Shown here: one piece after another, positions 38,222 to 61,647 of the stretch | Position numbering within the stretch: the first letter of the stretch is position 1 | Layout of the letters: every line of letters starts with the position of its first letter | Assembly: GCA_026387175.1 (NCBI GenBank) | Contig: JAPLME010000005.1 | Coordinates: 1 to 61,647, forward strand | Length of the DNA stretch: 61,647 bases | Direction of reading: 5' to 3' | Source of the DNA: Candidatus Omnitrophota bacterium | GTDB lineage: Bacteria > Omnitrophota > Gorgyraeia > 2-01-FULL-45-10 | Notes under the pieces: generated by a model | Seen by the model: only the letters and a program-made list of their open reading frames with translations | What the model was told of the DNA's origin: nothing | Database searches by the model: none | Position numbers and translations under genes: made by a program

Positions 38222-38258
38222 CATAGAAGTACCGGTCGTGCTATTACAGGACACTACA

Positions 38259-40835: not shown

Positions 40836-40844
40836 GTGGGGCTT

Positions 40845-40931: not shown

Positions 40932-40964
40932 AGGAGCGGGTTGTTACAGAAGAAGGTGACGGAC

Positions 40965-42524
40965 ATGATTACTAGAAAATGGTTACTTACACTATTATTA
41001 TTAAGCATATTTGCTATGACATTATCTACTGAGGCCATGGCGAATAATATCACCGTCTCTAACGTCTCCTTATATAAAGCATCGGGACAGCCGAACGGCA
41101 CGATAGGCATAAAATTCGATCTTGCATGGGATAACTCTTTCAGCGCCGTAGATAATAACGGCAATGCCTTTTTCGATCGCGCCTGGATATTCGTGAAGTA
41201 CTTTGACGCCGCAAATGCCAGCACCGACACAGCTTGGAGCCATGCCACCTTAATTTCAGGCGGGACAGTAAGCAATTATAACGCCCAGAGTGGGACCGGA
41301 ATAAGCGCTGACCAAAAAGGCGCTTTCTGTAGGCCCGGGACCAACCAGATTGTGTACTGGGATTACACCACCGATGGAGTCTCTTCCTCGGCTTCTATCT
41401 CGGTCAAAGTTATGGCGATAGAGATGGTCTATGTGCCAACAGGCTCGTTCTATGTCGGTTCAGGCGGCACCGAAACAAACGCTTTCTATAACTATCCCAA
41501 CACCACCAGCCCTTATAAGATAACCTCTGAAGATTCGATTACTGTGGGCACAACCACCGGAAATCTCTATTACCCGAATTCAAATACTTATGGCGGCGAT
41601 CAGGCAGGCCCAGTACCCGTCGCTTTCCCCAAAGGTTATAACGGTTTCTACATGATGAAATACGAAGTTAACCAGGGCCAATACCGGGATTTCTTGAATA
41701 CGCTCAGCCGCGCCCAGCAAAACCAAAGGGCCGGAGACGGAACAACCCTGGCTTCGGGCACAACATCCGTAACCAATATATATGTTATGCCAAATACCAG
41801 TATTGCCGCTAATATCGCTTCCGCTTCTAATTATCGTAATGGAATACGATGTGACGCCACTATTCCCGCGACTACCCCAATAACGTTTTACTGTGATTAT
41901 AACAATAATGGTACGCCGAACGAAGCCACTGACGGCGAATGGATAGCCTGTAATTATGTAAGCTGGCCCGACTTATGCGCCTATGCCGATTGGGCAGGGC
42001 TTCGTCCCTTTACTGAGTTTGAATTTGAAAAAGCGTCCAGAGGACTAAATACTTCGATAGCCAATGAATGCACATGGGGCTCAACCGTTATTACTGCCGG
42101 CCCTACAGGCCCGACCAATCCCGGCGCTAATAATGAGACAGCCACTAACAATGCCAACTGTAGCTATAACGGTACTGTGTCCGGCCCTATGCGCGTAGGA
42201 TTCGCTGCGACCAGCTCTTCAAGCCGTTATGCCTCGGGCGGCTCCTATTACGGAATAATGGAGCTTTCCGGGAACTTATGGGAACGATCGGTCACCGTAG
42301 GTAATAGTACCGGCCGGTTATTTATTGGTAGCCACGGAGATGGTAATTTAAGCACAACTAATACCGACTGGCCGGGAGCTAACGCGACCGGCTCGGGCTA
42401 CCACGGCGGCTGTTGGAACAACGACAATTTCAACGCTGGTGTGTCGGCCCGTACCTACGCGGCGACCGCGAGTGCTGGTCGCACCCTCACTTTCGGCATC
42501 CGCTGTGCCAGGACGGCTCAGTAG
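40965..42524 (+). CDS. secreted FGE-sulfatase (SUMF1/C-type-lectin-fold) domain protein
   Basis: Signal MITRKWLLTLLLLSIFAMTLSTEAMA. YEVNQGQYRDFL, VSWPDLCAYADWAGLRPFTEFEFEKASRG, MELSGNLWERS, HGGCW and FGIRCA match the PF03781-type pattern. The track start at 40836 is made of repeat sequence. Confidence 0.75.
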   Translation: MITRKWLLTLLLLSIFAMTLSTEAMANNITVSNVSLYKASGQPNGTIGIKFDLAWDNSFSAVDNNGNAFFDRAWIFVKYFDAANASTDTAWSHATLISGGTVSNYNAQSGTGISADQKGAFCRPGTNQIVYWDYTTDGVSSSASISVKVMAIEMVYVPTGSFYVGSGGTETNAFYNYPNTTSPYKITSEDSITVGTTTGNLYYPNSNTYGGDQAGPVPVAFPKGYNGFYMMKYEVNQGQYRDFLNTLSRAQQNQRAGDGTTLASGTTSVTNIYVMPNTSIAANIASASNYRNGIRCDATIPATTPITFYCDYNNNGTPNEATDGEWIACNYVSWPDLCAYADWAGLRPFTEFEFEKASRGLNTSIANECTWGSTVITAGPTGPTNPGANNETATNNANCSYNGTVSGPMRVGFAATSSSSRYASGGSYYGIMELSGNLWERSVTVGNSTGRLFIGSHGDGNLSTTNTDWPGANATGSGYHGGCWNNDNFNAGVSARTYAATASAGRTLTFGIRCARTAQ

Positions 42525-42666: not shown

Positions 42667-45600
42667 ATGAAAACTATGACGGGTAAGACAATTCGGGTGA
42701 TCGTAGCTCTAACGATGGTGTTACAGCCGTTAATGAGCGAGAGCGCCTATGCCCAGTTCGCCGGTGGAAGCGGCGCCGGCTGGGGAACAGCCGTGACATC
42801 ATCCAGCACGACGTTAAGCTCCGTAACTGCCGACACTAACGTCAAGCTCATTCGCGCGAGCCAGACGGTCACCTATGTCCAGCGATTATCCGGTGGCAAT
42901 TCTCTTATCACTTTGAGCGCCGCTTTTCCCAATAATAACCTTAAAGTAGGGCAAAAGATAGTTGTAAACGTTACTACCAATACCAGCTTTAACGGCACCT
43001 TCACTATTACCTGGGTCGCTAGCGATTATTGCTCTTTCAAATATTATCAACCTCTGGGCACTGTAGCTTCAACAGCCGACACGGGCACAGTCGGCGGTCA
43101 CTACTCTTCGCTTATCGGCTGGGAAGCGGCCGGCGGCAACACAACCGCCGAGTGTTATAATGACTGGGCGAGCGGCCTATCCGAAAACCTGACCATTTCC
43201 GGCAATAGCGCAACATCTACGAGTTACATGAAGATTACTGTTCCTTTGAGTGAGCGAAATACCGGCTCGACCGGCACGGGCTTCAAGTTGGCGGGGACTC
43301 TTACGGTCGGGGATAGCTATGCGGCCATTGAAGACATTGAGGTAACCGGCGTCGCCACAGTGTCGTCCGGCATGACCCTTAACACCAATGGCAATATATT
43401 GTTCACCGGCGGCCTCACGATCGAAGGTACGGCAACGCTTAACGCCGGAAACTCGAATATGGTATTTAGCTCAGGAGACATCAGCCTCTTCGGAATGCTT
43501 AACGCCCAGGGTTCGATGATAACGTTTAACGGTTCCACAGTAGCGCTCAGTAACAGCGTATTTACTCCCGGCCAGGCGACGATAGCGTTTTCCGGAACAT
43601 CGAGCTGGACGCCGGGCACCGTAACATACAAAACCGTAGAATTCGGTTCAGGCACGACGACCATTACCGGGACAGCCACGGTCGCCAATAAAGTGGTTCT
43701 TGCCACCGGCTCCTCCGGCGCCGTTAACGGCGGCGCGATTACCTTAACGGGCGATTTAGTCTGCACATCCGGCACCGGCGGCACGACCGCGATCACGTTG
43801 AACAGCACCGCGCAGCCGCAGTCCATTTCCGGCGGAGGCGCCGCCACATTGCCCCAAACCATCAACATTAATAAGTCCGGCCAAACCACCACGGTTTCTG
43901 GCGCCATAGGCCTGCAGAATGTCAATATACAGGCTGGCACCGTCGAGTTCGCCGGCGGTTATAACTACACTATCGGCGCCGGCAAGACGATCGCCTTGAG
44001 CGACACTCCAAGCGCTATCCTTAAATTTACCGGCACCAGCGCGTCGAGAAAGGTTACGCTGAGGAGCTCATCGCCGGGGACCGCCTGGAACCTGACCAAT
44101 CCGGCCAGCGCGGTAGTCACGCCGGTTCTTACGGATGTGCAGGATTCTGTTGCCTCCAGAGCGTCGGTAGACGCTACCAACGCGGGCAATATTAATAGCA
44201 GCAGAAATACCAACTGGCTCTTTGACGCAGCCGGCATTGTTTACTGGACCAATGGCTCAGGCGACGGCAAATGGTCCACAGCCGCTAACTGGTCCACAGG
44301 AGCTGTGCCAATCTCGACTGATTCAGTTATTTTCAATAATACCTCAACCACAAACTGCGCAGTCGACCAGACAGTTACTATTGCCAATCTCACTCTTAGC
44401 GCAGGATACTCCCCCGGCACTGTAACCTTAAGCCCAACAGCAGGGCAGGATCTAACCGTTACTAATACTATTGCCTTAAATGCCAACGGTGGAAAACTTA
44501 CAGATAATGGCAGGAATGTGAATTTTGTAAATTCCACAATTGCTAACGATACACCCATTAACAATCTCTTTAGCACCGGAAACTGGAAACAGACAGCCAG
44601 TGGAACCATTTCCGGCCCTTCCGGCAATAGCATGTTTAACAGTCTTGAAATAGCCGCAGGAGTTATTTCAAACTTTAGCGCCGGCGGATGCTTTATTAAA
44701 AAAAGTCTTACACTCAGGAGCAATTCTTCAATAGTTGGTGCGGATATATTACTTTACGGCTCCGGCTTAATAAATGATTGTATTGTGATGGAGACAGGTT
44801 CAACAATTCCTTCTTCTTCAACGATTGAGATATATGCTGCAGGCGCCGATCTAACTCAAGGGGCTTTATCTATAGGTGGAAATCTAAGGTTAGATTACAT
44901 TAATAATCATTCTGTCGCCATGACCGGAGATTGGAATATCGGTGGAAATTTGGAAATCTTTGGGTATTCTCCTTCAGGCTCAACTGCCACATTAGACACC
45001 AATAGCCATAACCTTACGGTAGGCGGTTATCTACAAGTAGGAAACAGTAATCCTTCATATGCCAATGGCATGCTTGGCAAAATCCTGTTTAAGGGCGGCA
45101 CTCACACCATCAGCGGAAATATTTATGTTGGCGGTGGAAGCACGTCTTCAACTTGTAATACCCATGGTTACATTGACTTTGGCTCAAGCACAGTAAATGT
45201 GGTAGGAAATATTGACTTTAGGTGTGCCTCAGTTACTCCCGGAACCTCAACCGTAAACCTTACCGGCACAGGCACAACTAATATTTATTCAATAGTCGAT
45301 TATACCTATAAAGACGCTACCTTAGATAACCCGGTATTAAATACCGCACCGCTCTATAAATTAACCTCAAGCGTAGCTGGCAAGACCATTAGCTTCGAGG
45401 CAGGGAAGACCGTAACAATAGCCAACAACCTGAGCCTTGCCGGAACCGGGACGGGCGCTAATCTCCTGACCTTAAACTCCACCACAGCAGGCACTGCAGC
45501 TAACCTAAATGTTTCAGGCACAGCTACCGGCATGAACTACTTGAGCGTTAAAGACTCCAATGCTTCGAGCGGAAAAGGCATCATAGCCATTAACTCTACC

Positions 45601-48600
45601 AATGTCAGTAATAACACTAACTGGATATTCGGCATGACCGGTTTTAATTATTGGACAAATACTTCGGGCGACGGCTTATGGTCTACAGCCGCCAACTGGT
45701 CCACAGGAGTTGTGCCGATTTCAGTTGACAATGTTGTATTTAACACCGTCTCAAGTTCAAACTGCAGTTTCGATACAGGGGTGACTAATACGACAGTCGG
45801 CAGCCTCACTTTAGGCGCCGGCTATATAGGCACCCTGACCTTAGCTAAAAGTATTACAATTGGCGGATTGCTTGTTGTAACTCAAGGGACATTTGATGCC
45901 GCTACCTACAATGTAACTGCGGCGGGCCTTCTTTCCACAGGAGCCTTAGCCCGCACACTGAATTTAGGCACAGGAAGCACCTGGACCATCTCAGGTAACT
46001 GGGGCTCTTCTGGCGGCAATATTACGGTTAACCCCGGCACCTCCACCGTTACTCTTACAGGAGACGGCACGGTTAAGGCCTGCCCCAGCGTCACCACTTT
46101 CTATAACCTCTCAGCGGCTGCGTCAGGCAAAACTACTACTATCGCCAGGGATCCTTCTAAGAATATATGGGTAGCAGGGGGACAAAGCACCAATACCCTT
46201 GCTTATTCTTCCGACGGCATTACTTGGACAGGCTTGGGCAAAAGCATATTTTCATATTGGGGTAACGCCGTTGCATGGAATGGTACTTGTTGGGTAGCAG
46301 GGGGCTATAGCGGTGGGACCGGCACGACTCTTGCCTATTCTTCCGATGGTATTAATTGGACTGGTTTAGGCGCAAGTCTGCTTAATAACTGGTGCAATTC
46401 TATTACCTGGAACGGCACCCGCTTCGTAGCGACAGGCAACGGCGCCAACACTCTTGCCTACTCCTCTGATGGTATTAACTGGAACGCAGTATCTAACTCA
46501 TTAACTAACATATTTTCGACTCAAGGCATGTGCTCTGCCTGGAACGGCACACGCTTTGTAGCCGGAGGCGCCGGTACTAATACTTTGGCATACTCTTCCG
46601 ACGGCATTACCTGGACAGGCTTAGGCACAAGCATATTCTCAAGCTATGGCTGTCGCGGTGTTGCCTGGAACGGCACCCGTTTCGTAGCAGTAGGAGATGG
46701 GCCTGATACAATTGCCTACTCTTCTAACGGGATTACCTGGACTCCGGCGTCTAACTCAATAAGCATATTCTCAACCCGTGGCCGCGGTATTGCCTGGAAC
46801 GGTACTCGTTTCGTAGCAGTAGGAGAAGGCACCAACTCCATTGCCTACTCTTCCGACGGCATTACCTGGACAGGCTTAGGTATAAGCATAATTAATAGCT
46901 ATGGCCAGTCTGTTGCCTGGAACGGTACTCGTTGGGTGGCAGGAGGCAATGGCTCAGGCAACCCCGGCATTGCCTACTCTTCTGACGGTATTACTTGGAC
47001 TGCAGTAGCTGGCTCACAATCCATCGTGGAAATATTCTGTGGCATTGCTTTCAGTTCCGCCCCCAAACTCGTTCCGCCCATCCTGAGCGATGACATAAAG
47101 GTCTCAAATGCCCTCACATTAGGCGGCGGCACACTCACCCGTAATGGCACTGACGTGGTGGCCTTAACCTTAACGAGCGCCACTCCTACTGTAACATTAG
47201 GAGGCTCCACAATAAGTAATAACGCTATTATAAGGTATGCTCCTGTAGCCAGTACAGGCACTACTACTGTCACTATCCCAGGAGGAGCCTACTCAGGTGC
47301 CAGGGTAGAGGCCTATACCAAGCTTAATGGAAGCGTCACCCAGCCTCAAGGAGCTGTTACATATCAGTTGGGGGGGAGTATCACCTCATTAGCTAATCTA
47401 AACATCTACGCTGATGTAGGGCTACCTGCCACTACATTCAGCTTAGTAAACGGCGCTAATAACTATAACCTCACTTCTTCCAGCCTTACATTAGGTAAGG
47501 ATGAAGTAACTAACGGCTCTGTCACATTTAACTCAGGTTCAGGCACAGTAGCTCTTGCCTCACTCACAAACCTCGTGCCTTCCACTAATAATAGCGGTTT
47601 ACACACTCTTAACCTTAATACATCTACCTGGAACGTGGCAGGGGACTGGGATACATCAGGTAATAACATCATACTTAACCCAAATACCTCAACCGTTAAC
47701 CTCACAGATAACGGCACACTTAAGACTAACCCTTCTACCACAAGCTTCTATAACCTGTCCTGCGCGGCATCAGGGAAGACCACTACAGTCGCCAGAGATC
47801 CTTCTAAGAATATGTGGGTGGCAGTGGGCAACGGCACTAACTCCATCGCCTACTCTTCAGACGGTATTGCCTGGGTAGGTTTAGGCTCAAGCATATTCTC
47901 AACTTATGGCTATGGCGTTTGCTGGAATGGCTCTAAGTTCGTGGCTGTAGGACAAGGCGCCAATTCCCTTGCTTACTCCTCCGACGGGATTACCTGGACA
48001 GGTTTGGGTTCAAGCATATTCTCAGCCTATGGCCGTGGCGTCTGTTGGAATGGCTCTAAGTTCGTGGCTGTAGGCGGCGGTACTAACTCCTTTGCCTATT
48101 CCTCTGATGGTATTATCTGGACAGGTTTGGGTAATAGCATATTCGGGAGTTCTGGTTTTGGCGTTGCCTGGAGCGGTATCCGCTTCGTAGCAGTAGGTTA
48201 CGCTAACAACACCCTTGCCTACTCTTCTGATGGTATTACCTGGACAGGCTTAGGTACAGGCATATTCTCAACCCAGAGCTATGGCGTCTGTTGGAACGGC
48301 TCTAAGTTCGTGGCAGGAGGCTATGGCACCAACTCCCTTGCCTACTCTTCTGATGGTATTACCTGGACAGGCCAAGGCGATATCGCACTCAGCTACAAGG
48401 ACCACGGTTTCGCCTGGAACGGCTCTAAATTCGTAGTAGTAGGCATAGGCAACACCCAAATTGGCTATTCAAATGATAACGGAGCTAGCTGGATAGGCTC
48501 AGGCGGAGGCATATTCTCATCCTCCGGCGCCGCCGCCGCCTGGAACGGCACCCGCTTCATAACCGTAGGCAACGGCACTAACTCTATTGCATACTCAACT

Positions 48601-54600: not shown

Positions 54601-57600
54601 GGATCTCTGCCGTCGGGTGGATGTGTAATTGTTTGCGGGCCGGATGGCGGCGGTAATTATACTTTAACTATGACCAGTGATTGGAGTATAGGCGGTTACC
54701 TTAAGATATATGGCGGCGGCGGACCTGGCTCAACTGTTACCTTAGATACTAATAGCCATAATCTTACTGTACCTGGTAATTTATGGTTGGGACAGAGTAA
54801 TTCTAGTTACCCCAACTATTATCTGGGTAAAATCCTGTTCAGAAACGGTACCCATACTATAAATGGCAAGATTTATTGTGATGGCCAATACACCCACGGC
54901 TACATAAACATGGGCTCATCGCCATACGGCGCGGGCGGGACATACCTGGGCGATTTTACCACCGGCACCGCCTTTGCCTGGCTCTTTGGAGCGGACCTAT
55001 CTACATACGCCGGCACTGACAGCGACAGCACGCCGTATTACATCATTTTAACCGACAGCGCAGGCAAGACCGCGAAGGGATATATCGCAGCAGGCGGGAC
55101 AGGAGAGGCGCTCGGAACTGAATTAATCACAGCCAGCGATGATAGGACATTTGCGTCTGATACCGGATATTGGTCTCATAGCCCCGGGGTGGTATCGATA
55201 GCGGATGGAGTTTGTCACTTTTCCAATTCTATGAATAATGGTATAAGCCACGCTCAGTTTGCGGTAATGACTAAGAACAAACTTTATAAGTCGCTATTAA
55301 CAATCTCTAATTATAGTCAAGGAGGAGCATATGCCGCTAGTTGGGCTGATGGCGCTGGCGTTTCACACACATTCCGGTCTAATGGAAATAAGAGTGGTTA
55401 TTACGTAGGGGGATCTTATTTTGGTTTTATAGCTGCCGTTTCCGGGGCAACCACATTAGACATTGATGATATTTCATTGAAACAAGTCACCGAGCCTGCC
55501 GCTTCTTCTTCCGGCGGACTGCATATAGTATCCGCCAGTAACGGCGCCACCCGTAACTGGGCGAATATAGACTCGGGGTTTGATCCCAATAACATCTTAT
55601 ACTACAAAATCTACAACTCCGCCACCAATGCCTTGGCTCCCGACGCCTCAGCCACTGTCAATCTTGGCGGAGACCTGGACCTGCGTTACTGCTCACTCGC
55701 CCCTGCGGGGACTATAAATTTCACCGGCGCGGGCGCAAACGTTCTCTATGGTATCCTTGACTATGCTTATAATGACGCATCTGATCTTACGACCACCCTA
55801 CCGTTCTATAACCTCACCTCAACCGTCGCAGGCAAGACCATACAGGTAGAAGCAGGCAAGACCTTAAAGGTCGCGGGCAATATGACGCTTCAGGGCGCCT
55901 CAGGCAACCTGCTTAATTTCCAGAGCACGACTGCGGGAACCGCAGGTAACCTTACCGTGTTAGGCGGCGCCACAAATATGCAATACTTAAGTGTCAAGGA
56001 CTCCAATGCCTCAAGCGGGAAAGGTGTCGCAACGCTTAGTTCTACCAATGTCAGCAATAACACCAACTGGATATTCGGCGTCGCCGGAAACAGCTATTGG
56101 ACCAATGCATCAGGCGATGGTAAATGGTCCACGGCCGCTAACTGGTCCACAGGCAGTGTACCTACTTCAACTAGCAATGTCTATTTTAACACCGCCTCAA
56201 CCTCAAACTGCAGTGTTGACTCAGGAGTGACCCAGACAATAACCATTGCCAATCTCACCCTTGACACCGGTTACACAGGCACAGTTACCTTGAGCGCAAC
56301 CTCAGGAGTAGATTTAACTGTTACCAACTCCGTCACCATCAACACTAACGGCGGAAAACTGGTTGATAACGGTAGGACGGTAAGCTTTACGAATGTCTCT
56401 ATTGTTTATGAAGATTACCGCTTGACTTCTACCGGCAACTGGAAGATGACGGCCAGCGGAAATGTAACCAATGCTCACTGGAGAAATATATTTAAAAGCC
56501 TTGAATTAGCAAGCGGAGTTACTGCGACTATGACATCAGGTATGCAGCTTGCGAGGCGTCTTATCCTTGGGAATAATTCTACGCTTAGCAGTAGCAGCGG
56601 CGGCTCAGTATGTTTATATCCCGACGTAGATAATTTCATTACTCAGGGTACAGGAGCAACCATCACTTCGTTTCTATGGATTCAAATACAATCTAATAAA
56701 TCACAGGGGACTCTGACTACAGCTGGGGATGTAAGTTTTTCTGAAACTGATAACTATACTTTAACTATGACCGGTAACTGGAATCTCGGTGGTTGTCTTT
56801 ATATACAGGGTAGGGCGTTATCTGGCTCAACTGCTACCTTAGATACCAATGGCTATAACCTTACTGTAAGCACTTATTTGAGGGTAGGAAATTCCGACGT
56901 TTCATCTCCCAATAGTTATCTCGGCAAAATTCTGTTTAAAAACGGCACCCACACGATTGGCGGGAAGATTTACAGCGGCGGCCAATACACCCATGGCTGG
57001 ATCAGCATGGGCGCAACCTCGTCAGGCGCAACTACACACAACTCATACCCCTACCTGGGCGACTTCAGCGCTACCGGAGCTTTTGCTTATCTTCCGGGAG
57101 TAGACCTTTCTCCCTATGTCGGTACCGACTCGGGCAGCACTCCTTACTATATAATCTTTACTGACAATGCGGGAAAAACGGCTAAGGGCTATCTGGCAGC
57201 AGGCGGCACAGGAGAGGCGTTGGGAAGTGATGCTGTAGTAAATGGAAATATGGAGTTGGATAGTAACTGGATCAATCAGTCAACTCCCACAACAAATGAA
57301 AGGAGCTCTACTTACAATCATACTTCCGGCGGCACATACAGCCGTCATGTCGTAGGAACCAGTAATAGCCAGGGTATCCAGGAAGTAATAGCTTCTGCCC
57401 TTACTATTGGAAAATTATATAATTACAATCTCTGGGTTTATCCGGTAACAGGTAATTATTTCGGGGGTTATTTATCAGGTAATAACGGTTGCTCTCTCAT
57501 TATGCCCTCCGCGGCATTAAATAGCTGGAATAATTTCTCTGTTTACGGAACCTGCACCAATACCACTTTGGCCCCGCTTATCTATACCGGAATTGCCGGC

Positions 57601-60600
57601 CCCTCTGAGTTTTATGTGGATGATGTTTCGGTCAAGCAGGTTACCGAGCCTAAACTTGCTTATGACGGCGGCGTACATATTGTCTCTTCTGCCAATGGCG
57701 CCACCCGCGCCTGGACATCCGTAGATTCCGGATTTAATTATAGTCGTATCTCATCCTATAAAATCTACAACTCCGGCACCAATGCCTTAGCTCCCAATTA
57801 TTCAGCCACTGTCAATCTGGGAGGCGACTTAGATTTGCGTTACTGCTCAATAAGTCCTGCAGTTGGTACGATTAACTTCACCGGCACGGGCACAACCACA
57901 AGCTCTCTCTATGCCGTCTCTAGCTATGCTTATATGGACATGGTCTTAGATAATCCTAATGTCTATTATACTATCCCGCTATATAATCTCACCGCGAATT
58001 ATGCGACTGCCGGGTATGGCAAGACCCTGAAGGTAGAGGCGGGCAAGACCTTAAGCATCGCAGGTAACATGACGCTTCAGGGCGCCTCAGGTAGCCTGAT
58101 GAATTTTCAGAGCACCACTGCAGGCACTGCCGGCAGTTTAAATGTGCTGGGAACCGCAACCAATATGCAATACCTGAACGTCAAAGACTCCGATGCATCG
58201 AGCGGCAAGAAAGTCGTTACCACCGGTTCATCCGACTCAGGCAACAACCTAAACTGGGTCTTCGGTACAGCAGGCACGGTTTATTGGACCAATGCTTCAG
58301 GCGACGGCCTCTGGTCTACAGCCGCTAACTGGTCCACCGGCGCGGTGCCTCAGGCGACCGACTCAGTTGTCTTTAATACCGCCTCAACCTCAAATTGCTC
58401 AGTAGACGCCGGAGTAACTTCCAGTATAACCCTGGCCAATCTCACCCTTGATACCGGCTACACAGGCACACTTACCTTAAGCGCAACCTCAGGGGTGGAT
58501 TTAACCGTTACCAATTCAGTTATCATTAACACTAACGGCGGAATGTTCAATGATAATGGAAGGACCGTAAATTTCAAAAATGTTTCCATCGCCTACGATG
58601 CCAGCCATCTTACCTCAACCGGAAACTGGAAAATGACAGCCGATGGTAATATTTCAAATTCTTATAATGCCGCTGGTGTTTACACTTCGTTTAAAAACCT
58701 TGAGCTGGCATCCGGAGTTAAGGCAAATTTAACATACTTTGTTAATACAAAAGGCCTTATTATGAGAAATAATTCTCAAGCCAATTCTACCGGCGGCTAT
58801 ACTTTATACTTTCCTTCGGTTACAAATAATGACTTCATTAGCCAGGAAACAGGAGCAACCATTTCGGTGCCGATTTCAATAGGCCCAATTTCTACTAGTT
58901 TGAGTCAAAAGGCCTTAACCACAAATGGGAATGTAAGCGTTATTTATTTTGCCGGCACCCTAACCATGACCGATAACTGGAGTATTTTGGGGAACTTGAC
59001 ATTTTATGGTTCATCCAACGCTAGCCCTGCCATCTTAGACACTAATGGCCATAACCTTAGTGTGGGCAGTTATTTGAAATTAGGATGGAACAGGAATTCT
59101 TCATATGCTAATGACTACCTTGGTAAAGTCCTGTTTGGGACCGGCACCCACACTATCGGCGGTAACATTTATGTTGATGGTGGAAGCTCGCCCTCAACTT
59201 GCTATACTCACGGCTACCTTGACTTTGGCTCTGCTACGGTAAATGTAGGCGGGGACCTCGATTTCAGATGTGCCTCAGTTACTCCCGGGACTTCAAACGT
59301 AATTCTTACCGGTGCTACTGCTGCCAATATTTATAGCATTGTAGATTATACATATAAAGACGCTACATTAGATAACCCGGTATTAAATACCGCACCGCTC
59401 TATAAATTAACCTCAAGCGTAGCTGGTAAGACCGTTAGCTTCGAGGCAGGGAAGACCGTAACAATAGCCAATAACCTGAGCCTTGCGGGAACCGGCACGG
59501 GTAGTAATCTCCTGACTTTAAACTCCACCACAGCAGGCACTGCCGCTAACCTAAATGTCGCAAGCGGCGCTACAGTTACCGGCATGAACTACTTAAGTGT
59601 CAAAGACTCCGATGCCTCCAGCGGAAAGGGTGTTGTGGCGAATAACTCCACAAATGTAAGCAATAACACCAATTGGTTCTTTGGCGCAGCCGGTAGTAAT
59701 TATTGGATCAATATTTCCGGTGATGGAAAATGGTCCACAGCCGCTAACTGGTCCACGGGCAGCGTGCCGACTACAGCCGATAATGTTATATTAAACTCTA
59801 TATCAACCACAAACTGCAGTTTCGATACAGGGGTGACTAATACCACAGTAGCAAGCCTCACTCTGGATACAGGCTACACTGGTACTCTGACATTAGCTAA
59901 GGGTATTACAGTCACCGGAGCACTTACAGTAACCCAAGGAACATTTGATGTCGCTACATTTAATGTAAGTGCAGCGAGCTTCACCTCCACAGGAATATTG
60001 GCCCGCACATTGAACTTAGGTACAGGAACATGGACTATCTCAGGTAACTGGGACTCTTCGGGAGGCAACATTACGGTTAACCCCGGCACCTCCACCGTTA
60101 CTCTTACAGGAGACGGCACAGTTAAGGCTTGTCCAAGTGTTACTACTTTTTATAATCTCTCAGCCGCCGCCTCAGGTAAGACTACTACCATTGCTCGCGA
60201 TCCTTCTAAGAATACGTGGGTAGGCATAGGTTATGGCACCAATGCCCTCGCCTACTCTTCCGATGGCATTAACTGGACCGGATTAGGTACAAGCATATTT
60301 TCAAATGGTGGTATGGCTGCCGCTTGGAACGGCACCCGTTTTGTGGCTGTAGGGCAAGGCCAAGCTACAACCTCCATCGCATATTCTTTTGATGGCATCA
60401 CCTGGAATGCAGTACCTAACTCGAGACAAATATTGGACTATGGCTGTGATGTCGCCTGGAACGGTACTCGTTGGGTAGCGGCAGGCGCAACAGGTAGCAG
60501 CATTAATGGATCTATTGCGTATTCTCCAGACGGCATTACCTGGACTGGTTTAGGGACAAACGTATTTCCAGATCGAGCTTGGGCAGTTTGCTGGAACGGC

Positions 60601-61647
60601 ACCCGTTTTGTAGCAGGAGGAAATGGTGCCAATACTCTTGCCTACTCTCCCGATGGCCTTACCTGGACAGGTTTGGGGTCAAGCATATTTTCAACTCTTT
60701 GCCGTAAAATTGCCTGGAACGGTTCCAGGTTTGTCGCTGTGGGGCAAGGTACCAACACCCTTGCCTACTCCTCCGATGGGACGACCTGGGTGGGCTTAGG
60801 CTCAAGCACATTCTCAGCATCGTGTTCTGGTATCGTCTGGAACGGCACTCGCTTTGTAGCCGTAGGCTTAGGTACCAACTCCATTGCCTACTCCTCCGAT
60901 GGCATTACCTGGACAGGCTTAGGCGCAAACATATTTATAAGCGGAGGTTATGGAGTTGCTTGGAACGGCACCCGTTTCATAGCAGGAGGCTACGGTACTA
61001 ATTCTATCGGGTACTCCTCCGATGGCATTACCTGGACAGGAATTACCGCTAAAACCATATTCTCAACAGATGGTTATGCCGGCGCCTCTTGCTCAGCCCC
61101 CAAGCTTGTCCCACCCATCCTGAGCGATGACATAATGATCTCACATGCCCTCACCTTAGGCGGCGGCACACTCACTCGTAACTCTACCGACGTGGTAGCC
61201 TTAACCTTAACTAGCGCCACTCCTGCAGTAACATTGGGAGGCTCCACAATAAGTAATAACGCTATTATAAGATATGCTCCCGTAGCTAGCACAGGTACTA
61301 CCACCATTACCATCCCCGGAGGCTCTTATTCAGGTGCTAAGATAGAAGCATACTCTAAGTTTAATAGCGGATTAGCCTCACCTCAATCTCAAGGAGCCCT
61401 CACATATCAGTTAGGGGGGAGCATCACCTCATTAGCCAATCTAAACATCTATGCTGATGTAGGCCTACCTGCCACCACATTCAGCTTAGTAAATGGCGGT
61501 AATAATTATAACCTCACCTCTTCATCTCTTACACTCGGTAAGGATGAGGTAACTAACGGCACTGTCACATTTAACTCAGGTTCCGGCACAGTAGCTCTAC
61601 CGTCTCTTACAAACCTCGTTCCTTCCACTAATAATAGCGGTTTACAC
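42667..61647 (+). CDS. giant secreted repeat protein, 3'-open (at least 6327 aa in the window)
   Basis: Frame 1 has no stop from ATG 42667 to the last base, 18981 nt = 6327 codons. I checked triplets by hand to ~49.75 kb. Beyond that, the ORF track lists no frame-1 ORF, which it would if a stop existed. Signal peptide MKTMTGKTIRVIVALTMVLQPLMSESAYA-Q. G/T/N/S-rich beta-helix-like sequence, Asp-box propellers, CBM-like domains. Confidence 0.9.
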   Translation, partial: MKTMTGKTIRVIVALTMVLQPLMSESAYAQFAGGSGAGWGTAVTSSSTTLSSVTADTNVKLIRASQTVTYVQRLSGGNSLITLSAAFPNNNLKVGQKIVVNVTTNTSFNGTFTITWVASDYCSFKYYQPLGTVASTADTGTVGGHYSSLIGWEAAGGNTTAECYNDWASGLSENLTISGNSATSTSYMKITVPLSERNTGSTGTGFKLAGTLTVGDSYAAIEDIEVTGVATVSSGMTLNTNGNILFTGGLTIEGTATLNAGNSNMVFSSGDISLFGMLNAQGSMITFNGSTVALSNSVFTPGQATIAFSGTSSWTPGTVTYKTVEFGSGTTTITGTATVANKVVLATGSSGAVNGGAITLTGDLVCTSGTGGTTAITLNSTAQPQSISGGGAATLPQTININKSGQTTTVSGAIGLQNVNIQAGTVEFAGGYNYTIGAGKTIALSDTPSAILKFTGTSASRKVTLRSSSPGTAWNLTNPASAVVTPVLTDVQDSVASRASVDATNAGNINSSRNTNWLFDAAGIVYWTNGSGDGKWSTAANWSTGAVPISTDSVIFNNTSTTNCAVDQTVTIANLTLSAGYSPGTVTLSPTAGQDLTVTNTIALNANGGKLTDNGRNVNFVNSTIANDTPINNLFSTGNWKQTASGTISGPSGNSMFNSLEIAAGVISNFSAGGCFIKKSLTLRSNSSIVGADILLYGSGLINDCIVMETGSTIPSSSTIEIYAAGADLTQGALSIGGNLRLDYINNHSVAMTGDWNIGGNLEIFGYSPSGSTATLDTNSHNLTVGGYLQVGNSNPSYANGMLGKILFKGGTHTISGNIYVGGGSTSSTCNTHGYIDFGSSTVNVVGNIDFRCASVTPGTSTVNLTGTGTTNIYSIVDYTYKDATLDNPVLNTAPLYKLTSSVAGKTISFEAGKTVTIANNLSLAGTGTGANLLTLNSTTAGTAANLNVSGTATGMNYLSVKDSNASSGKGIIAINSTNVSNNTNWIFGMTGFNYWTNTSGDGLWSTAANWSTGVVPISVDNVVFNTVSSSNCSFDTGVTNTTVGSLTLGAGYIGTLTLAKSITIGGLLVVTQGTFDAATYNVTAAGLLSTGALARTLNLGTGSTWTISGNWGSSGGNITVNPGTSTVTLTGDGTVKACPSVTTFYNLSAAASGKTTTIARDPSKNIWVAGGQSTNTLAYSSDGITWTGLGKSIFSYWGNAVAWNGTCWVAGGYSGGTGTTLAYSSDGINWTGLGASLLNNWCNSITWNGTRFVATGNGANTLAYSSDGINWNAVSNSLTNIFSTQGMCSAWNGTRFVAGGAGTNTLAYSSDGITWTGLGTSIFSSYGCRGVAWNGTRFVAVGDGPDTIAYSSNGITWTPASNSISIFSTRGRGIAWNGTRFVAVGEGTNSIAYSSDGITWTGLGISIINSYGQSVAWNGTRWVAGGNGSGNPGIAYSSDGITWTAVAGSQSIVEIFCGIAFSSAPKLVPPILSDDIKVSNALTLGGGTLTRNGTDVVALTLTSATPTVTLGGSTISNNAIIRYAPVASTGTTTVTIPGGAYSGARVEAYTKLNGSVTQPQGAVTYQLGGSITSLANLNIYADVGLPATTFSLVNGANNYNLTSSSLTLGKDEVTNGSVTFNSGSGTVALASLTNLVPSTNNSGLHTLNLNTSTWNVAGDWDTSGNNIILNPNTSTVNLTDNGTLKTNPSTTSFYNLSCAASGKTTTVARDPSKNMWVAVGNGTNSIAYSSDGIAWVGLGSSIFSTYGYGVCWNGSKFVAVGQGANSLAYSSDGITWTGLGSSIFSAYGRGVCWNGSKFVAVGGGTNSFAYSSDGIIWTGLGNSIFGSSGFGVAWSGIRFVAVGYANNTLAYSSDGITWTGLGTGIFSTQSYGVCWNGSKFVAGGYGTNSLAYSSDGITWTGQGDIALSYKDHGFAWNGSKFVVVGIGNTQIGYSNDNGASWIGSGGGIFSSSGAAAAWNGTRFITVGNGTNSIAYSTDGVTWTGLGTSIFSGGGLGVCSIPAPKLTPPVLSDDIPVLNTLTLGGGTLTRNGTDQVALTLRKDNTGTPLILGGSTISNNAIIRFAPVADPSAAKHVTIPGGDYGTAQIEAYVQTNSGVAQPQGLIDYQLGGSITGASSLNVYADSNLSTTFGLNIYDLYSVTPGYVYIGKDCARGPVTFNSGTGALTLAATPLSSIVADNAGSHTLNMNSSTWNISGDWRPEGLTSDTSSSLSVVPGTSTLNITGTGTTNIYGSKTATPSTPLYNLYTPTGGLANKTIKVNAGSTLQIAGTLKLQGQSSGSLLYFQSTTAGTPANLNVTGSSVNMQYLNVTDSNASGGKPILAYSSTIDTYSLNHNWVSGTLGNVYWTNASGDGKWSTAANWSTGAVPVSTDSVVFNAASVANCSVDAGVTSSIALANLTLDNGYAGTVTLSSTSGVDLTVTNSIAINTNGGKLNDNGRTVNFKNASIANEANRLTSSGNWKMTASGNFASAYNVQFYSLELASGVTATLTDTVCLRRLILGNNSTLTGNYTLSIAGATSNNFITQGTGATINSTIGIWLYADVSQGALITTGQVMIANTVNHTLTMTDNWNIGGNLQISGQNYAGAAATLDTNGHNLTVGSYLQLGYNGSSGNQYLGKILFRTGTHSINGNIYVGGSNTHGYISMGSSPSGAGGAYYGDFTATNAFAWVSGADLSLYVGTDGGNTPYYIEFTDNAGKKAKGYLGSGGTGEALGSEILTNGTALVDSNSDGLADSVATLSNGGGSGTFSIVTGNGFPGNAQRESQTSTSGGYGFQIQPTSVPGRLLKTSFKYRASNSINWEFADGGYYPSNPPANTGNAVDWFLYRTEKSWRFGFYNYGTSGSWFEIGNMSVKQAVEPAGPSSGGLHIVSANGGATRAWTNIDSGFNYNNISSYKIYSSADNSLAPNASATVNLAGDLDLRYCSFAPAGTINFTGAGTSKLYGILDYAYKDTSMDTIVLNKIPLYNLTSTAVGKTIQVEAGKTLQVAGNMTLQGVSGNFINFQSTTAGTAGNLTMLGNATSMQYLNVKDSNASSGKSVITLGSTNAGNNTNWIFGVAGNNYWLNASGDGKWSTAGNWSTGAVPISTDSVIFNTASVSNCSVDQAATVANFTLDTGYTGTVTLSATSGQNLTVSGTITLNSGKLIDNGRTVNFVNFNIANIAGLLTSTGTWVETNSGTCSNPASYSNYMSVLQIADNKTCTFTSDCRVSNQFILGSSSAIIVNGGFYINPSMNNPIVQGTGAAITVNNLLFENSAFTQGAMNITGDISVRTSISPVIMTGNWSTTGNLNLSPTTFGDTNGTTVLDTNGYNLTVGGNIKLGSSNVSYPGKLSGKILFRTGTHTISGKIYTDNASGTSYTHGYISMGSSPSGAGGAYYGDFTATNAFAWVSGADLSAYAGTDSGSTSYYVIFTDSAGKTAKGYIAGSGSGETYGSELISNTTFESGITGWSGQGANISWNTTTPITGSGSLQTSNTAYGGGACLPVNTTVGSFYRATGSVRKDSGSTRNLRFGFGGPSHNYSPQPIIVPSAPAGYSGTFTTYGTVITNYNTLIIVNDESIDTVCDWDDLSCKQLTEPQPSFSGGLHIVSANNGTTRSWASVDSGFDYNNISSYKIYNSTTNTLAPDASATINLAGDLDLRYCSFAPAGIINITGTGTSKLYGILDYTYKDTSIDTPVVNKIPLYNFTSTVAGKTLQVEAGKTLQIAGNMTLQGASGNLLNFQSTTAGTAGNLTVLGGATNMQYLSVKDSNASSGKAVVAYNSTNVSNNTNWIFGVTGNNYWLNTSGDGKWSTAANWSTGSVPASIDSVYFNAASTSNCSVDSGVTQTITIANLTLDTGYTGTVTLSATSGVDLIVNNSVTINTNGGKLVDNGRAVNFKNVSIPNEANRLVSTGNWKMTASGSLANLYGGNPFNSLELAAGVNASLSSGGMHLTRYLNMGSNSTFSNGSICIFCPTVDNFLIYSAGATIPVLWIFLASSRSQGSLPSGGCVIVCGPDGGGNYTLTMTSDWSIGGYLKIYGGGGPGSTVTLDTNSHNLTVPGNLWLGQSNSSYPNYYLGKILFRNGTHTINGKIYCDGQYTHGYINMGSSPYGAGGTYLGDFTTGTAFAWLFGADLSTYAGTDSDSTPYYIILTDSAGKTAKGYIAAGGTGEALGTELITASDDRTFASDTGYWSHSPGVVSIADGVCHFSNSMNNGISHAQFAVMTKNKLYKSLLTISNYSQGGAYAASWADGAGVSHTFRSNGNKSGYYVGGSYFGFIAAVSGATTLDIDDISLKQVTEPAASSSGGLHIVSASNGATRNWANIDSGFDPNNILYYKIYNSATNALAPDASATVNLGGDLDLRYCSLAPAGTINFTGAGANVLYGILDYAYNDASDLTTTLPFYNLTSTVAGKTIQVEAGKTLKVAGNMTLQGASGNLLNFQSTTAGTAGNLTVLGGATNMQYLSVKDSNASSGKGVATLSSTNVSNNTNWIFGVAGNSYWTNASGDGKWSTAANWSTGSVPTSTSNVYFNTASTSNCSVDSGVTQTITIANLTLDTGYTGTVTLSATSGVDLTVTNSVTINTNGGKLVDNGRTVSFTNVSIVYEDYRLTSTGNWKMTASGNVTNAHWRNIFKSLELASGVTATMTSGMQLARRLILGNNSTLSSSSGGSVCLYPDVDNFITQGTGATITSFLWIQIQSNKSQGTLTTAGDVSFSETDNYTLTMTGNWNLGGCLYIQGRALSGSTATLDTNGYNLTVSTYLRVGNSDVSSPNSYLGKILFKNGTHTIGGKIYSGGQYTHGWISMGATSSGATTHNSYPYLGDFSATGAFAYLPGVDLSPYVGTDSGSTPYYIIFTDNAGKTAKGYLAAGGTGEALGSDAVVNGNMELDSNWINQSTPTTNERSSTYNHTSGGTYSRHVVGTSNSQGIQEVIASALTIGKLYNYNLWVYPVTGNYFGGYLSGNNGCSLIMPSAALNSWNNFSVYGTCTNTTLAPLIYTGIAGPSEFYVDDVSVKQVTEPKLAYDGGVHIVSSANGATRAWTSVDSGFNYSRISSYKIYNSGTNALAPNYSATVNLGGDLDLRYCSISPAVGTINFTGTGTTTSSLYAVSSYAYMDMVLDNPNVYYTIPLYNLTANYATAGYGKTLKVEAGKTLSIAGNMTLQGASGSLMNFQSTTAGTAGSLNVLGTATNMQYLNVKDSDASSGKKVVTTGSSDSGNNLNWVFGTAGTVYWTNASGDGLWSTAANWSTGAVPQATDSVVFNTASTSNCSVDAGVTSSITLANLTLDTGYTGTLTLSATSGVDLTVTNSVIINTNGGMFNDNGRTVNFKNVSIAYDASHLTSTGNWKMTADGNISNSYNAAGVYTSFKNLELASGVKANLTYFVNTKGLIMRNNSQANSTGGYTLYFPSVTNNDFISQETGATISVPISIGPISTSLSQKALTTNGNVSVIYFAGTLTMTDNWSILGNLTFYGSSNASPAILDTNGHNLSVGSYLKLGWNRNSSYANDYLGKVLFGTGTHTIGGNIYVDGGSSPSTCYTHGYLDFGSATVNVGGDLDFRCASVTPGTSNVILTGATAANIYSIVDYTYKDATLDNPVLNTAPLYKLTSSVAGKTVSFEAGKTVTIANNLSLAGTGTGSNLLTLNSTTAGTAANLNVASGATVTGMNYLSVKDSDASSGKGVVANNSTNVSNNTNWFFGAAGSNYWINISGDGKWSTAANWSTGSVPTTADNVILNSISTTNCSFDTGVTNTTVASLTLDTGYTGTLTLAKGITVTGALTVTQGTFDVATFNVSAASFTSTGILARTLNLGTGTWTISGNWDSSGGNITVNPGTSTVTLTGDGTVKACPSVTTFYNLSAAASGKTTTIARDPSKNTWVGIGYGTNALAYSSDGINWTGLGTSIFSNGGMAAAWNGTRFVAVGQGQATTSIAYSFDGITWNAVPNSRQILDYGCDVAWNGTRWVAAGATGSSINGSIAYSPDGITWTGLGTNVFPDRAWAVCWNGTRFVAGGNGANTLAYSPDGLTWTGLGSSIFSTLCRKIAWNGSRFVAVGQGTNTLAYSSDGTTWVGLGSSTFSASCSGIVWNGTRFVAVGLGTNSIAYSSDGITWTGLGANIFISGGYGVAWNGTRFIAGGYGTNSIGYSSDGITWTGITAKTIFSTDGYAGASCSAPKLVPPILSDDIMISHALTLGGGTLTRNSTDVVALTLTSATPAVTLGGSTISNNAIIRYAPVASTGTTTITIPGGSYSGAKIEAYSKFNSGLASPQSQGALTYQLGGSITSLANLNIYADVGLPATTFSLVNGGNNYNLTSSSLTLGKDEVTNGTVTFNSGSGTVALPSLTNLVPSTNNSGLH
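44239..47603 (+). repeat. super-repeat, first occurrence of the segment seen again 14.04 kb downstream
   Basis: Colinear nucleotide similarity with 58279-61647; for example 45361-45420 versus 59401-59466 is nearly identical. Landmark W codons at 44245/58285 and 45652/59704. Confidence 0.85.
46141..47080 (+). repeat. seven-bladed Asp-box (BNR-like) beta-propeller, copy 1
   Basis: Seven ~42-aa units of the form LAYSSDGITWTGLG.SIFS..G..VAWNGTRFVAVG.GTN; SxDxGxTW is the Asp-box. Confidence 0.8.
47788..48693 (+). repeat. seven-bladed Asp-box beta-propeller, copy 2
   Basis: Seven units (AYSSDGI.WTGLG...CWNGSKFVAVG). The sixth blade is degenerate (GYSNDNGASWIGSG). Confidence 0.8.
49699..58278 (+). 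repeat. four tandem ~2.1-kb (~715-aa) modules inside the giant ORF
   Basis: Module heads (YW.N.SGDGKWSTA.NWSTG) have their W codons at 49705, 51850, 53998, 56098, and the next at 58285. Periods are 2145, 2148, 2100 and 2187 nt. Confidence 0.9.
58279..61647 (+). repeat. super-repeat, second occurrence (cut by the window end)
   Basis: See 44239-47603. The last bases AATAATAGCGGTTTACAC match 47586-47603, offset 14044. Confidence 0.85.
60190..61117 (+). repeat. seven-bladed Asp-box beta-propeller, copy 3 (paralogous to copy 1)
   Basis: Seven AYS.DG.TW units, followed by the same APKLVPPILSDD linker as copy 1. Confidence 0.8.

What the first reader, a model, noticed from the sequence alone, without database searches (positions are those of the whole stretch)
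44239..61647. A ~14.04-kb (~4680-aa) super-repeat organises the giant gene
Landmark codons recur at a constant offset: the head-motif W codons at 44245 and 58285 (14040 nt), and at 45652 and 59704 (14052 nt). The final 18 nt of the window equal 47586-47603 (offset 14044). One period consists of a short head module (~1.4 kb), a ~4-kb block containing two propellers, and four ~2.1-kb cassette modules. By eye, nucleotide identity between the two occurrences ranges from roughly 85% to near identity; 45361-45420 versus 59401-59466 is almost identical. A repeat unit of this size inside a single bacterial gene is exceptional. It implies recent unequal recombination or gene conversion.
Basis: seen in the sequence. 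Interest (0 to 1): 0.7.

Follow-up and report, generated by a model that had tools for sequence, protein, structure and literature searches.

The report
Old module-block duplication in giant gene
A giant, highly repetitive surface-protein gene of an uncultured Omnitrophota bacterium carries a second, diverged copy of one module block 14 kb downstream of the first. The contig ends before anyone can tell whether a full 14-kb period repeats, so this is a known kind of gene with a partly seen higher-order repeat.

Summary
The landmarks are real. The head motifs lie at 44245, 45652, 49705, 51850, 53998, 56098, 58285 and 59704. The best self-match in the window is 44984-47604 against 59027-61647, with an in-frame offset of 14,043 nt. 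Three points change the picture.

1. Identity is about 76% (51-93% per 150 nt), not 85-100%.
2. Only 3.4 kb of a putative second period exists, because the window is a whole contig that ends inside the gene.
3. The first ~0.7 kb of the "second period" resembles the neighbouring cassettes more than the first copy. The copy-specific block is therefore the A-type tail plus propeller module B (at least 2.65 kb).

Synonymous divergence between the copies is about 0.95 and dN/dS about 0.2. The duplication is therefore old and both copies are kept by selection, not recent. Short gene-conversion patches do exist.

The gene belongs to an Omnitrophota bacterium. Its product has a signal peptide, no transmembrane helices and almost no Pfam matches. 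It is built of all-beta cores, CBM-like inserts and 7-bladed Asp-box propellers, and the gene lies downstream of a conserved secretin, two-component, DUF2341 and FGE-sulfatase cluster.

Repetitive giant genes in this phylum are already described. A 14-kb period is plausible but unproven.

The parts
42667..61647 (+). 5' part (6,327 codons) of a giant gene, cut by the end of the contig. The product has an N-terminal Sec-type signal peptide (MKTMTGKTIRVIVALTMVLQPLMSESAYA|Q) and no transmembrane helix, and 47% of its residues are T, G, S or N.
   Evidence: the window is the whole contig (P0162 longest_contig 61647)
42667..44244 (+). N domain (526 aa), unique within the gene. It marks orthologues in three other Omnitrophota assemblies, all of them cut at contig ends.
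44245..45651 (+). Module A: head motif, ~315-aa all-beta core and ~155-aa A-type tail, with no insert.
45652..47604 (+). Module B: head motif, then a 7-bladed Asp-box (SSDGITW) beta-propeller at about 46159-47061, then a ~180-aa beta-rich region. It has no tail.
47605..49704 (+). Module C: no head. It holds a second 7-bladed propeller unit (56% aa identity to B residues 102-651) and a tail. B and C together span one head-to-head interval of 4,053 nt.
49705..58284 (+). Four cassettes, D1 (49705), D2 (51850), D3 (53998) and D4 (56098). Each has a head, a core, a ~250-aa variable insert (CBM4/9-like by weak homology) and a tail. They are 50-57% aa identical pairwise, with dS 1.2-1.7.
58285..59703 (+). 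Module A2, a mosaic A-type module. Its head and front core resemble D1, D3 and D4 (79-85% aa). Its middle differs from all other modules. From about 59185 it is A-type (75-98% aa to A; tail 86%). It has no insert.
59704..61647 (+). Module B2: head and a 7-bladed propeller. It is 72-74% aa identical to B and its sister in the tree. It ends 3 residues before the B/C boundary, at the contig end.
44984..47604 (+). Copy 1 of the block that is specifically duplicated (A tail plus B).
   Evidence: (76% over 2,663 columns)
59027..61647 (+). Copy 2 of the duplicated block, offset 14,037-14,052 nt and in frame. It runs off the contig, and its last 27 nt exactly match 47578-47604.
31438..42524 (+). Upstream gene cluster: ExeA-like AAA ATPase (31438-32283), secretin (32982-34577), TPR protein (34600-36225), histidine kinase (36227-37432), response regulator (37425-38099), DUF2341 protein (38238-40835) and FGE-sulfatase-fold protein (40836-42524). 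The run from TPR to FGE-sulfatase is syntenic with the giant gene in relatives.

Best explanation
The region is the 5' 19 kb of a giant gene in an Omnitrophota bacterium. The gene encodes a secreted, membrane-helix-free, modular surface protein that looks like an adhesin.

Every module starts with a conserved Trp-rich head. It continues with an all-beta core that is probably a beta-solenoid and ends in a ~150-aa tail. The cassettes carry a variable CBM-like insert, and one composite module (B plus C) carries two 7-bladed Asp-box propellers.

The 14.04-kb offset reflects an old intragenic duplication made by unequal homologous recombination between paralogous modules. It placed a second A-type tail plus propeller module B after the fourth cassette, and it probably duplicated the whole intervening ~14 kb in tandem. 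On that reading a C-type unit and more cassettes should follow beyond the contig end.

Since then both copies have been kept in frame under purifying selection, with short gene-conversion patches and homogenisation of head regions among neighbouring modules.

What is shown and what is inferred:
- Shown: the anatomy, the colinear paralogy, its age and the selection on it.
- Inferred: the tandem nature and the full extent of the duplication.
- Inferred: export with the help of the adjacent secretin cluster, and a role in binding glycans on a host or prey surface.
For: - The ORF is continuous and has a signal peptide.
- The taxon is Omnitrophota: DXS is 82-84% identical to named Omnitrophota MAG proteins.
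- Module map.
- The best self-diagonal has offset 14,043 and 76% identity, and all offsets are multiples of 3.
- The A and A2 tails are sisters at 86% aa, and the B and B2 propellers are sisters at 74%. C and all the L010 units fall outside, so the duplication is specific to this lineage.
- dS is 0.95 for A/A2 and B/B2 against 1.2-1.7 for the D pairs and B/C, with dN/dS about 0.2-0.26.
- A2 is a mosaic with a D-like 5' part and an A-like 3' part. A crossover between a D-type core and the A core would produce exactly this.
- Identical silent sites cluster into runs, and exact repeats reach 59-77 nt.
- The propeller fold is supported: pLDDT is 72-89 and Foldseek probability is 1.0, with GH74 and Ycf48 among the matches.
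- The core model is all-beta with pLDDT 70-95.
- Stand-alone homologues of the insert give weak CBM_4_9 hits.
- The synteny with HK, RR, DUF2341 and FGE-sulfatase is conserved.
- Published work reports T2SS- or pilus-type genes next to Omnitrophota giant genes and proposes adhesion to prey (10.1101/2023.11.21.568195; 10.64898/2026.06.07.730766).
Against: - Only 3.4 kb of the second copy is visible, and nothing shows that C and the cassettes recur.
- The relative L010 arranges the same modules as N-A-B-C-C-B-C-D/propeller, with periods of 1.6 and 5.5 kb. Blocks therefore do move or duplicate at other scales.
- A-type, insert-less modules also occur in another organism's protein (P0014). The mosaic A2 could therefore come from head homogenisation, not from a crossover junction.
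- The beta-solenoid assignment of the core rests on non-significant fold matches (E>0.3). The insert and tail were modelled with low confidence.
- No experiment or expression data exist, and the link to the secretin rests on adjacency only.
Confidence: 0.5

Rival explanations
1. Only a short block was copied. A segment of roughly 2.7-5.5 kb (A tail plus B, perhaps with C) was duplicated or converted into a position after D4. Homology in the core on the left and in the tail on the right guided the event. There is no complete second 14-kb period, and 14.04 kb is simply the distance between two dispersed paralogous blocks.
For: - Copy-specific similarity starts only at about 44.95/59.0 kb. The first 0.7 kb of A2 is D-like.
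- The relative L010 shows a B-type module recurring 5.5 kb downstream without an A-type module before it. Module order therefore differs between lineages.
- P0014 has just two tandem A modules.
Against: - A dispersed, in-frame, in-register insertion needs two recombination junctions, whereas one unequal crossover gives a tandem unit with a single hybrid module, as seen.
- The similarity shows no sign of ending at the contig end. The last 150-nt windows are 80-87% identical and the final 27 nt are identical.
Confidence: 0.33
2. Assembly artefact. The contig is a chimera, for instance a join of the cassette array to the A-B region of a related strain or of another paralogous gene. In that case the two copies do not lie in one gene.
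For: - The window is a metagenomic contig that ends inside the repeat.
- All orthologues are truncated at contig ends, which shows that assemblers struggle with this gene.
- The contig ends in a 27-nt exact match to copy 1. About 2.5% of positions on this diagonal are preceded by at least 27 exact matches.
Against: - No exact repeat longer than 23 nt lies near the D4-to-A2 junction, and the longest anywhere is 77 nt.
- The switch inside A2 from D-like to A-like passes through ~350 nt that resemble no other module (33-50% aa). A k-mer join would give an abrupt switch instead.
- The frame stays open across the junction.
- An orthologous copy from another strain would have an N domain before A, not a D tail.
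Confidence: 0.07
3. One reading: a recent unequal recombination or gene-conversion event produced near-identical 14-kb periods that are still being homogenised.
For: - There are local high-identity patches. 45364-45513 is 93% identical and dS is 0.25 at 45310-45549.
- Exact runs of 59 and 50 nt lie on the diagonal.
- The silent-site run test gives p=0.036.
Against: - Overall dS is 0.95 and nucleotide identity is 71-76%.
- Two stretches are saturated at silent sites: 44.6-44.95 kb and 46.15-46.5 kb.
- Copies that recombined recently would be more than 95% identical and would probably have collapsed in assembly.
Confidence: 0.05

Closest known systems
Giant repetitive extracellular proteins of Omnitrophota: 'tandem-repeat scaffold' class (Nielsen & Lui 2026, bioRxiv 10.64898/2026.06.07.730766) and giant genes next to T2SS-like loci (West-Roberts et al. 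2023, bioRxiv 10.1101/2023.11.21.568195)
   Same: - Same phylum, with a very long ORF cut at a contig boundary.
- Built from repeated modules whose nucleotide repeats have decayed while the architecture persists.
- A signal peptide, secretion or pilus-type genes nearby, and carbohydrate-binding-like and beta-helix-like parts.
- A proposed role in adhesion to host or prey.
   Different: - Almost Pfam-dark: the only hit is the 'Amnionless' head motif.
- No transmembrane helices, SecA-DEAD, HEAT, dockerin or TSP3 domains in the visible 6,327 aa. It is therefore neither the Archaeovorin type nor the Dockerin type.
- The nesting of 41-aa blades, 2.1-kb cassettes and a possible 14-kb unit is not described in those papers.
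Titin and nebulin super-repeats (eukaryotic muscle proteins; e.g. PMC10665226)
   Same: This is a higher-order repeat. A fixed order of different modules recurs, and corresponding positions (A/A2, B/B2) are more alike than neighbouring modules.
   Different: - The protein is unrelated.
- Only about a quarter of a second period is seen here, and the number of periods is unknown.
- There is no evidence of a partner structure whose spacing the period would match.
Large bacterial repeat adhesins (own knowledge: RTX adhesins of the LapA and MpIBP type, SiiE, Ebh; beta-helical autotransporter and TPS passengers)
   Same: - A secreted, T/G/S/N-rich, beta-rich modular fibre with ligand-binding domains inserted into it.
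- The repeats evolve by unequal recombination and conversion.
   Different: - No BIg, RTX, FIVAR or autotransporter domains were detected.
- The repeat units are far larger (700 aa) and diverged, whereas those adhesins have short, near-identical tandem Ig-like repeats.
- The fold matches to beta-helix adhesins are not significant.
Asp-box (BNR-type) beta-propellers such as GH74 xyloglucanases and Ycf48
   Same: A 7-fold SxDGxTW motif at 41-aa spacing, and a confident propeller model with Foldseek probability 1.0 to these structures.
   Different: - No Pfam BNR or GH74 hit and no PDB hit by sequence.
- No catalytic residues could be assessed.
- The propeller is embedded in a giant scaffold and is not a free enzyme.

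Membership tests
Higher-order (super-)repeat in the titin/nebulin sense | Corresponding modules of different periods are more similar to each other than to neighbouring modules of the same period | tested here: met
   The A and A2 tails are 86% aa identical, against 50-63% to the D and C tails. The B and B2 propellers are 74%, against 58-59% to C. The head and front core of A2 do not meet this: they are closer to D1, D3 and D4.
Higher-order (super-)repeat in the titin/nebulin sense | At least two complete periods with the same module order | not testable with these tools
   The contig ends 3.4 kb into the putative second period. No longer copy was found in any collection.
Omnitrophota Archaeovorin-type giant protein (West-Roberts 2023) | Many transmembrane regions, a SecA-DEAD-like domain and HEAT repeats | tested here: not met
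   No transmembrane helix beyond the signal peptide in 6,327 aa. No such Pfam domains. The unseen 3' part is untested.
Omnitrophota Dockerin-type giant protein (West-Roberts 2023) | Dockerin/EF-hand and TSP3 repeats | tested here: not met
   No Pfam hits of these families at E up to 1.
Omnitrophota 'tandem-repeat scaffold' long proteins (Nielsen & Lui 2026, class 2) | A protein of at least 10,000 aa in which one domain type dominates by copy number | tested here: inconclusive
   Eight head-delimited modules and 21 propeller blades are visible. The visible length is 6,327 aa and the total is unknown. The class is defined on Pfam copies, and this protein is almost Pfam-dark.
Asp-box/BNR beta-propeller | A repeated SxDxGxTW motif, one per blade, and a propeller fold | tested here: met
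   Seven motifs each in B, C and B2 at ~41-aa spacing; one blade of C has a variant motif. In the model, residues 170-470 have pLDDT 72-89, with Foldseek E of 1e-8 to 1e-6 and probability 1.0 to propellers including GH74 and Ycf48.
Right-handed beta-helix / beta-solenoid surface proteins | Solenoid fold of the module core | tested here: inconclusive
   The core (residues 25-290 of D1) is modelled as short regular strands with pLDDT 70-95. The best Foldseek matches (RsaA, tapirin, MpAFP, EspP, Ag43, PL6 lyases, tailspikes) all have E>0.3.
CBM4/9-type carbohydrate-binding module (the cassette insert) | A match to PF02018, or a beta-sandwich fold with a binding cleft | tested here: inconclusive
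   The inserts themselves give no Pfam hit. Stand-alone homologues of 250-270 aa give CBM_4_9 at 25.5 and 18.6 bits, just below the 25.9-bit cut-off. The insert was modelled at pLDDT below 50.

The most novel reading that the evidence does not exclude
The gene really is built from two or more complete ~4,680-residue periods (A, B, C, then four cassettes), kept in register by selection. That would be a titin-like super-repeat in a bacterial extracellular fibre, giving a gene of 30 kb or much more. Its long-range periodicity would present propellers and variable CBM-like inserts at fixed spacing to a host or prey surface.
Probability: 0.2. Interest if true: 0.6.

Novelty: new variant of a known kind. 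Interest (0 to 1): 0.4.

Why it matters
Giant genes of Omnitrophota are a recognised but poorly understood class, and most copies in public data are cut off by assembly breaks. This locus gives a clean, datable example of how such a gene grows. Whole multi-module blocks are duplicated by recombination between paralogous modules, then retained under purifying selection, with small conversion patches.

It also defines a module family that is almost Pfam-dark (head, all-beta core, optional CBM-like insert, tail, Asp-box propellers) and a conserved neighbourhood of HK, RR, DUF2341 and FGE-sulfatase.

If the 14-kb unit proves to be a true period, it would be an unusual higher-order repeat for a bacterial protein. 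If not, this is one more repetitive adhesin-like giant. In either case the practical lesson is that short-read contigs cannot settle the architecture.

Tried and rejected
Attempts to recover the rest of the gene:
- An exact 44-nt pattern from the contig end had no match in genome contigs or metagenome contigs.
- A search with the A2 plus B2 protein found only 13 weak hits, the best at 56% identity.
- A search with the N domain found 3 orthologues, all truncated at contig ends.
- The exhaustive HMM search with the cassette profile found 2,858 relatives. None was longer than 7,400 aa, and the closest was a different, complete 3,475-aa protein.
- Genome contigs held no useful relatives.
- Metagenome contigs gave one good relative, L010, but only 14 kb of its ORF is held.
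- An exact-protein look-up of the FGE-sulfatase ORF from its GTG start failed. The response-regulator look-up found only short Logan contigs that end before the giant gene.

Domain and structure searches:
- NCBIfam gave nothing for the modules.
- PDB sequence searches with both module profiles gave nothing.
- BLASTP of the whole protein against itself returned only the identity HSP, so I compared modules pairwise instead.
- My first sub-segment dN/dS table used two out-of-frame segment starts. I discarded it in favour of a sliding window on the codon alignment.

Ideas considered and dropped:
- The upstream 1,387-aa, DUF2341 and FGE proteins are related to the giant protein's modules. There were no BLASTP hits.
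- The contig end marks a collapsed long exact repeat. This is unlikely, because the first copy was assembled straight through the same 27-mer.

Literature: searches for bacterial 'super-repeat' or 'higher-order repeat' adhesins found nothing relevant.
Full report
**What is there**

The window is a complete 61,647-nt metagenomic contig. The 100%-identical DXS protein P0162 is recorded on a longest contig of exactly that length. Housekeeping genes place it in Omnitrophota: DXS is 82-84% identical to proteins named Candidatus Omnitrophica or Omnitrophota, and all named hits belong to that phylum.

From ATG 42667 one frame stays open to the last base (6,327 codons). The product starts with a Sec-type signal peptide and has no transmembrane helix. 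T, G, S and N make up 47% of its residues. Pfam finds only the N-terminal 'Amnionless' motif, which is the recurrent head. NCBIfam and PDB sequence searches find nothing.

**Module anatomy**

The head 'YWxNxSGDGxWSTAxNWSTGxVP' occurs eight times, at 44245, 45652, 49705, 51850, 53998, 56098, 58285 and 59704. Pairwise and multiple alignments give this map:

| Module | Start | Content |
|---|---|---|
| N | 42667 | Unique 526 aa |
| A | 44245 | Head, ~315-aa core, ~155-aa tail |
| B | 45652 | Head, seven 41-aa Asp-box blades (SSDGITW), beta-rich region, no tail |
| C | 47605 | No head; second propeller unit (56% aa to B) plus a tail |
| D1-D4 | 49705, 51850, 53998, 56098 | Head, core, ~250-aa variable insert, tail; 50-57% aa identical pairwise |
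| A2 | 58285 | A-type module (mosaic, see below) |
| B2 | 59704 | Head and propeller |

Structure evidence for the modules:
- An AlphaFold model of B gives pLDDT 72-89 for residues 170-470. Foldseek matches propellers at probability 1.0 (E 1e-8 to 1e-6), including the Asp-box propellers GH74 and Ycf48.
- The D1 model has a confident all-beta core (residues 25-290, pLDDT 70-95). It has only non-significant fold matches, although the list is dominated by beta-helix surface proteins and lyases.
- The insert is modelled poorly. Its many stand-alone 250-270-aa homologues give CBM_4_9 hits just below threshold.

**The 14-kb observation**

The strongest self-match in the window is 44984-47604 against 59027-61647, with 76% identity over 2,663 columns and offset 14,043. 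A protein-guided global alignment of 44200-47604 with 58240-61647 is colinear throughout. All offsets (14,037-14,055) are multiples of three.

The head spacings 1407, 4053, 2145, 2148, 2100 and 2187 sum to 14,040, and the next spacing is 1419.

Identity was overstated. It is 51-93% per 150-nt window, with a single window at 90% or more (45364-45513). The quoted 60-mer is 58/60 identical. Only 3.4 kb, or 24%, of a second period exists.

**What exactly is duplicated**

Trees and similarity scans show that the A and A2 tails are sisters (86% aa). The B and B2 propellers are also sisters (74%), to the exclusion of C and of every unit in the relative L010.

A2 is a mosaic:
- Its first ~100 residues are 79-85% identical to D1, D3 and D4 but 60-68% to A.
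- Residues 120-240 resemble nothing else (33-50%).
- From about residue 300 (nt ~59185) it is 75-98% identical to A and about 50% to the D cassettes.

The copy-specific block is therefore the A tail plus B, at least 2.65 kb and running off the contig. The head-motif coincidences at 44245 and 58285 are generic. Insert-less A-type modules with A-type tails also occur in another organism's complete 3,475-aa protein (P0014).

**Age and selection**

| Pair | dS | dN/dS |
|---|---|---|
| A / A2 | 0.95 | 0.26 |
| B / B2 | 0.95 | 0.20 |
| D cassette pairs | 1.2-1.7 | 0.23-0.27 |
| B or B2 / C | 1.2-1.3 | 0.25-0.30 |

The 14-kb pair is the youngest large duplication in the gene but is far from recent, and both copies are under purifying selection.

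Silent-site identity is clustered:
- dS drops to 0.25 at 45310-45549.
- The longest run of identical synonymous codons has p=0.036 for the 14-kb pair, and p=0.0002 and 0.0004 for D1/D2 and D3/D4.
- Those two cassette pairs share 77-nt exact repeats amid 64-66% nucleotide identity.

Short gene-conversion tracts are the simplest reading. So 'gene conversion' is partly right and 'recent duplication' is wrong.

**Mechanism**

A single unequal crossover between a D-type core downstream of D4 and the A core would do two things. It would create one hybrid, insert-less module with a D-like 5' part and an A-like 3' part, which is what A2 looks like. It would also duplicate in tandem exactly the distance between the misaligned sites, which is 14.04 kb. 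This predicts C2 and further cassettes beyond the contig end, and a gene of about 30 kb or more.

I rate this the best explanation at 0.5. The main rival, at 0.33, is that only a short block (A tail plus B, perhaps C) was copied or converted into place. Two observations favour the rival:
- L010 (JGI Ga0315279_10000772) has an ORF of at least 4,722 aa. Its module order is N-A-B-C-C-B-C-D/propeller, it is 48-62% aa identical to the window modules, and it has its own periods of 1,578 and 5,505 nt.
- Homogenisation of heads among neighbouring modules could equally explain the D-like front of A2.

An assembly chimera is unlikely, at 0.07, for three reasons:
- No exact repeat longer than 23 nt lies near the D4-to-A2 junction.
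- The longest exact repeat anywhere is 77 nt.
- The D-like to A-like switch runs through ~350 nt unlike any other module, which is not the abrupt k-mer join a chimera would show.

**Context and function**

Directly upstream lie these genes:
- an ExeA-like AAA ATPase
- a secretin
- a TPR protein
- a histidine kinase and response regulator pair
- a DUF2341 protein
- an FGE-sulfatase-fold protein

The order TPR, HK, RR, DUF2341, FGE-sulfatase, giant gene recurs in GCA_016935115.1 and in an ENA contig (without the TPR gene there). FGE-sulfatase also precedes the giant ORF in L010.

Two preprints report that Omnitrophota giant genes are typically flanked by T2SS- or pilus-type genes. They also report that these genes contain CBM-like and beta-helix parts and are mostly built of old, diverged repeats, and they propose adhesion to and degradation of host or prey surfaces.

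By anatomy this protein fits an exported adhesin-like fibre. By domain content it is neither the Archaeovorin type nor the Dockerin type.

**Novelty and verdict**

Repetitive giant genes in this phylum are known. New here are the Pfam-dark module family, the conserved neighbourhood, and a documented large block duplication with a possible 14-kb period. The two preprints do not discuss higher-order repeats.

Interest is 0.4.

All three orthologues of the N domain are cut at contig ends 550-800 aa into the gene. Only long reads can settle the architecture.

Noticed in passing
window 40836-42524; ENA ERZ1426822 contig: The FGE-sulfatase-fold gene just upstream of the giant gene is syntenic in relatives. 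In one relative a bAvd gene and a reverse transcriptase (RVT_1) sit between it and the giant gene. This is the canonical layout of a diversity-generating retroelement whose target would be the FGE-sulfatase/C-type-lectin-fold protein. The window has no bAvd or RT gene between FGE-sulfatase and the giant gene, and self-BLAST shows no template/variable repeat pair.
   Followed up: partly
window 61621-61647 and 47578-47604: The contig ends in a 27-nt exact match to the first copy. Only about 2.5% of positions on this diagonal are preceded by at least 27 exact matches, so the contig end may be linked to the repeat. However, the first copy was assembled straight through the same 27-mer.
   Followed up: partly
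P0282/L088 (GCA_016935115.1), P0283, P0284: All three database orthologues of the N domain are 'partial' proteins cut at contig ends only 550-800 aa into the gene, at or just after the first head module. This gene family is systematically fragmented in short-read MAGs.
   Followed up: yes
window 50617-50693 / 52768-52844 and 54124-54200 / 56224-56300: 77-nt exact repeats link neighbouring cassettes that are otherwise 64-66% identical. The silent-site run tests gave p=0.0002 and 0.0004, which indicates short gene-conversion tracts or a constraint at the nucleotide level.
   Followed up: yes
window 24089-25505: A tRNA cluster (Gln-CTG, Leu-GAG, Glu-CTC, Ser-GCT). A 104-nt direct repeat (24194-24297 and 25148-25251, 86% identical) lies just after tRNA-Gln and just after tRNA-Leu.
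   Followed up: no
window 25695-32000: A stretch of lower GC (0.43-0.46, against about 0.50-0.55 in the flanks) downstream of the tRNA cluster. It carries a Pfam-less 1,387-aa ORF with an N-terminal hydrophobic segment (25695-29858) and an IS200-type Y1 transposase (30024-30608). It may be an inserted island.
   Followed up: no
P0014 (3,475 aa, complete): The closest complete relative has two almost identical tandem A-type modules, followed by long Ig-like arrays and a C-terminal coiled-coil-like region. This hints at what the missing 3' end of the window gene might look like.
   Followed up: partly
window 34600-36225 (minus-strand ORF 34662-36032): A 456-aa antisense ORF overlaps the TPR gene in a stretch with extreme AT skew (0.35) and GC skew (0.25). 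It is probably a by-product of the purine-rich, Lys/Glu-rich coding strand and not a gene.
   Followed up: no
L011-L087: More than 400 stretches in JGI metagenome contigs encode relatives of the Asp-box propeller unit alone (40-60% aa). The propeller is therefore a widespread module outside this gene family.
   Followed up: no
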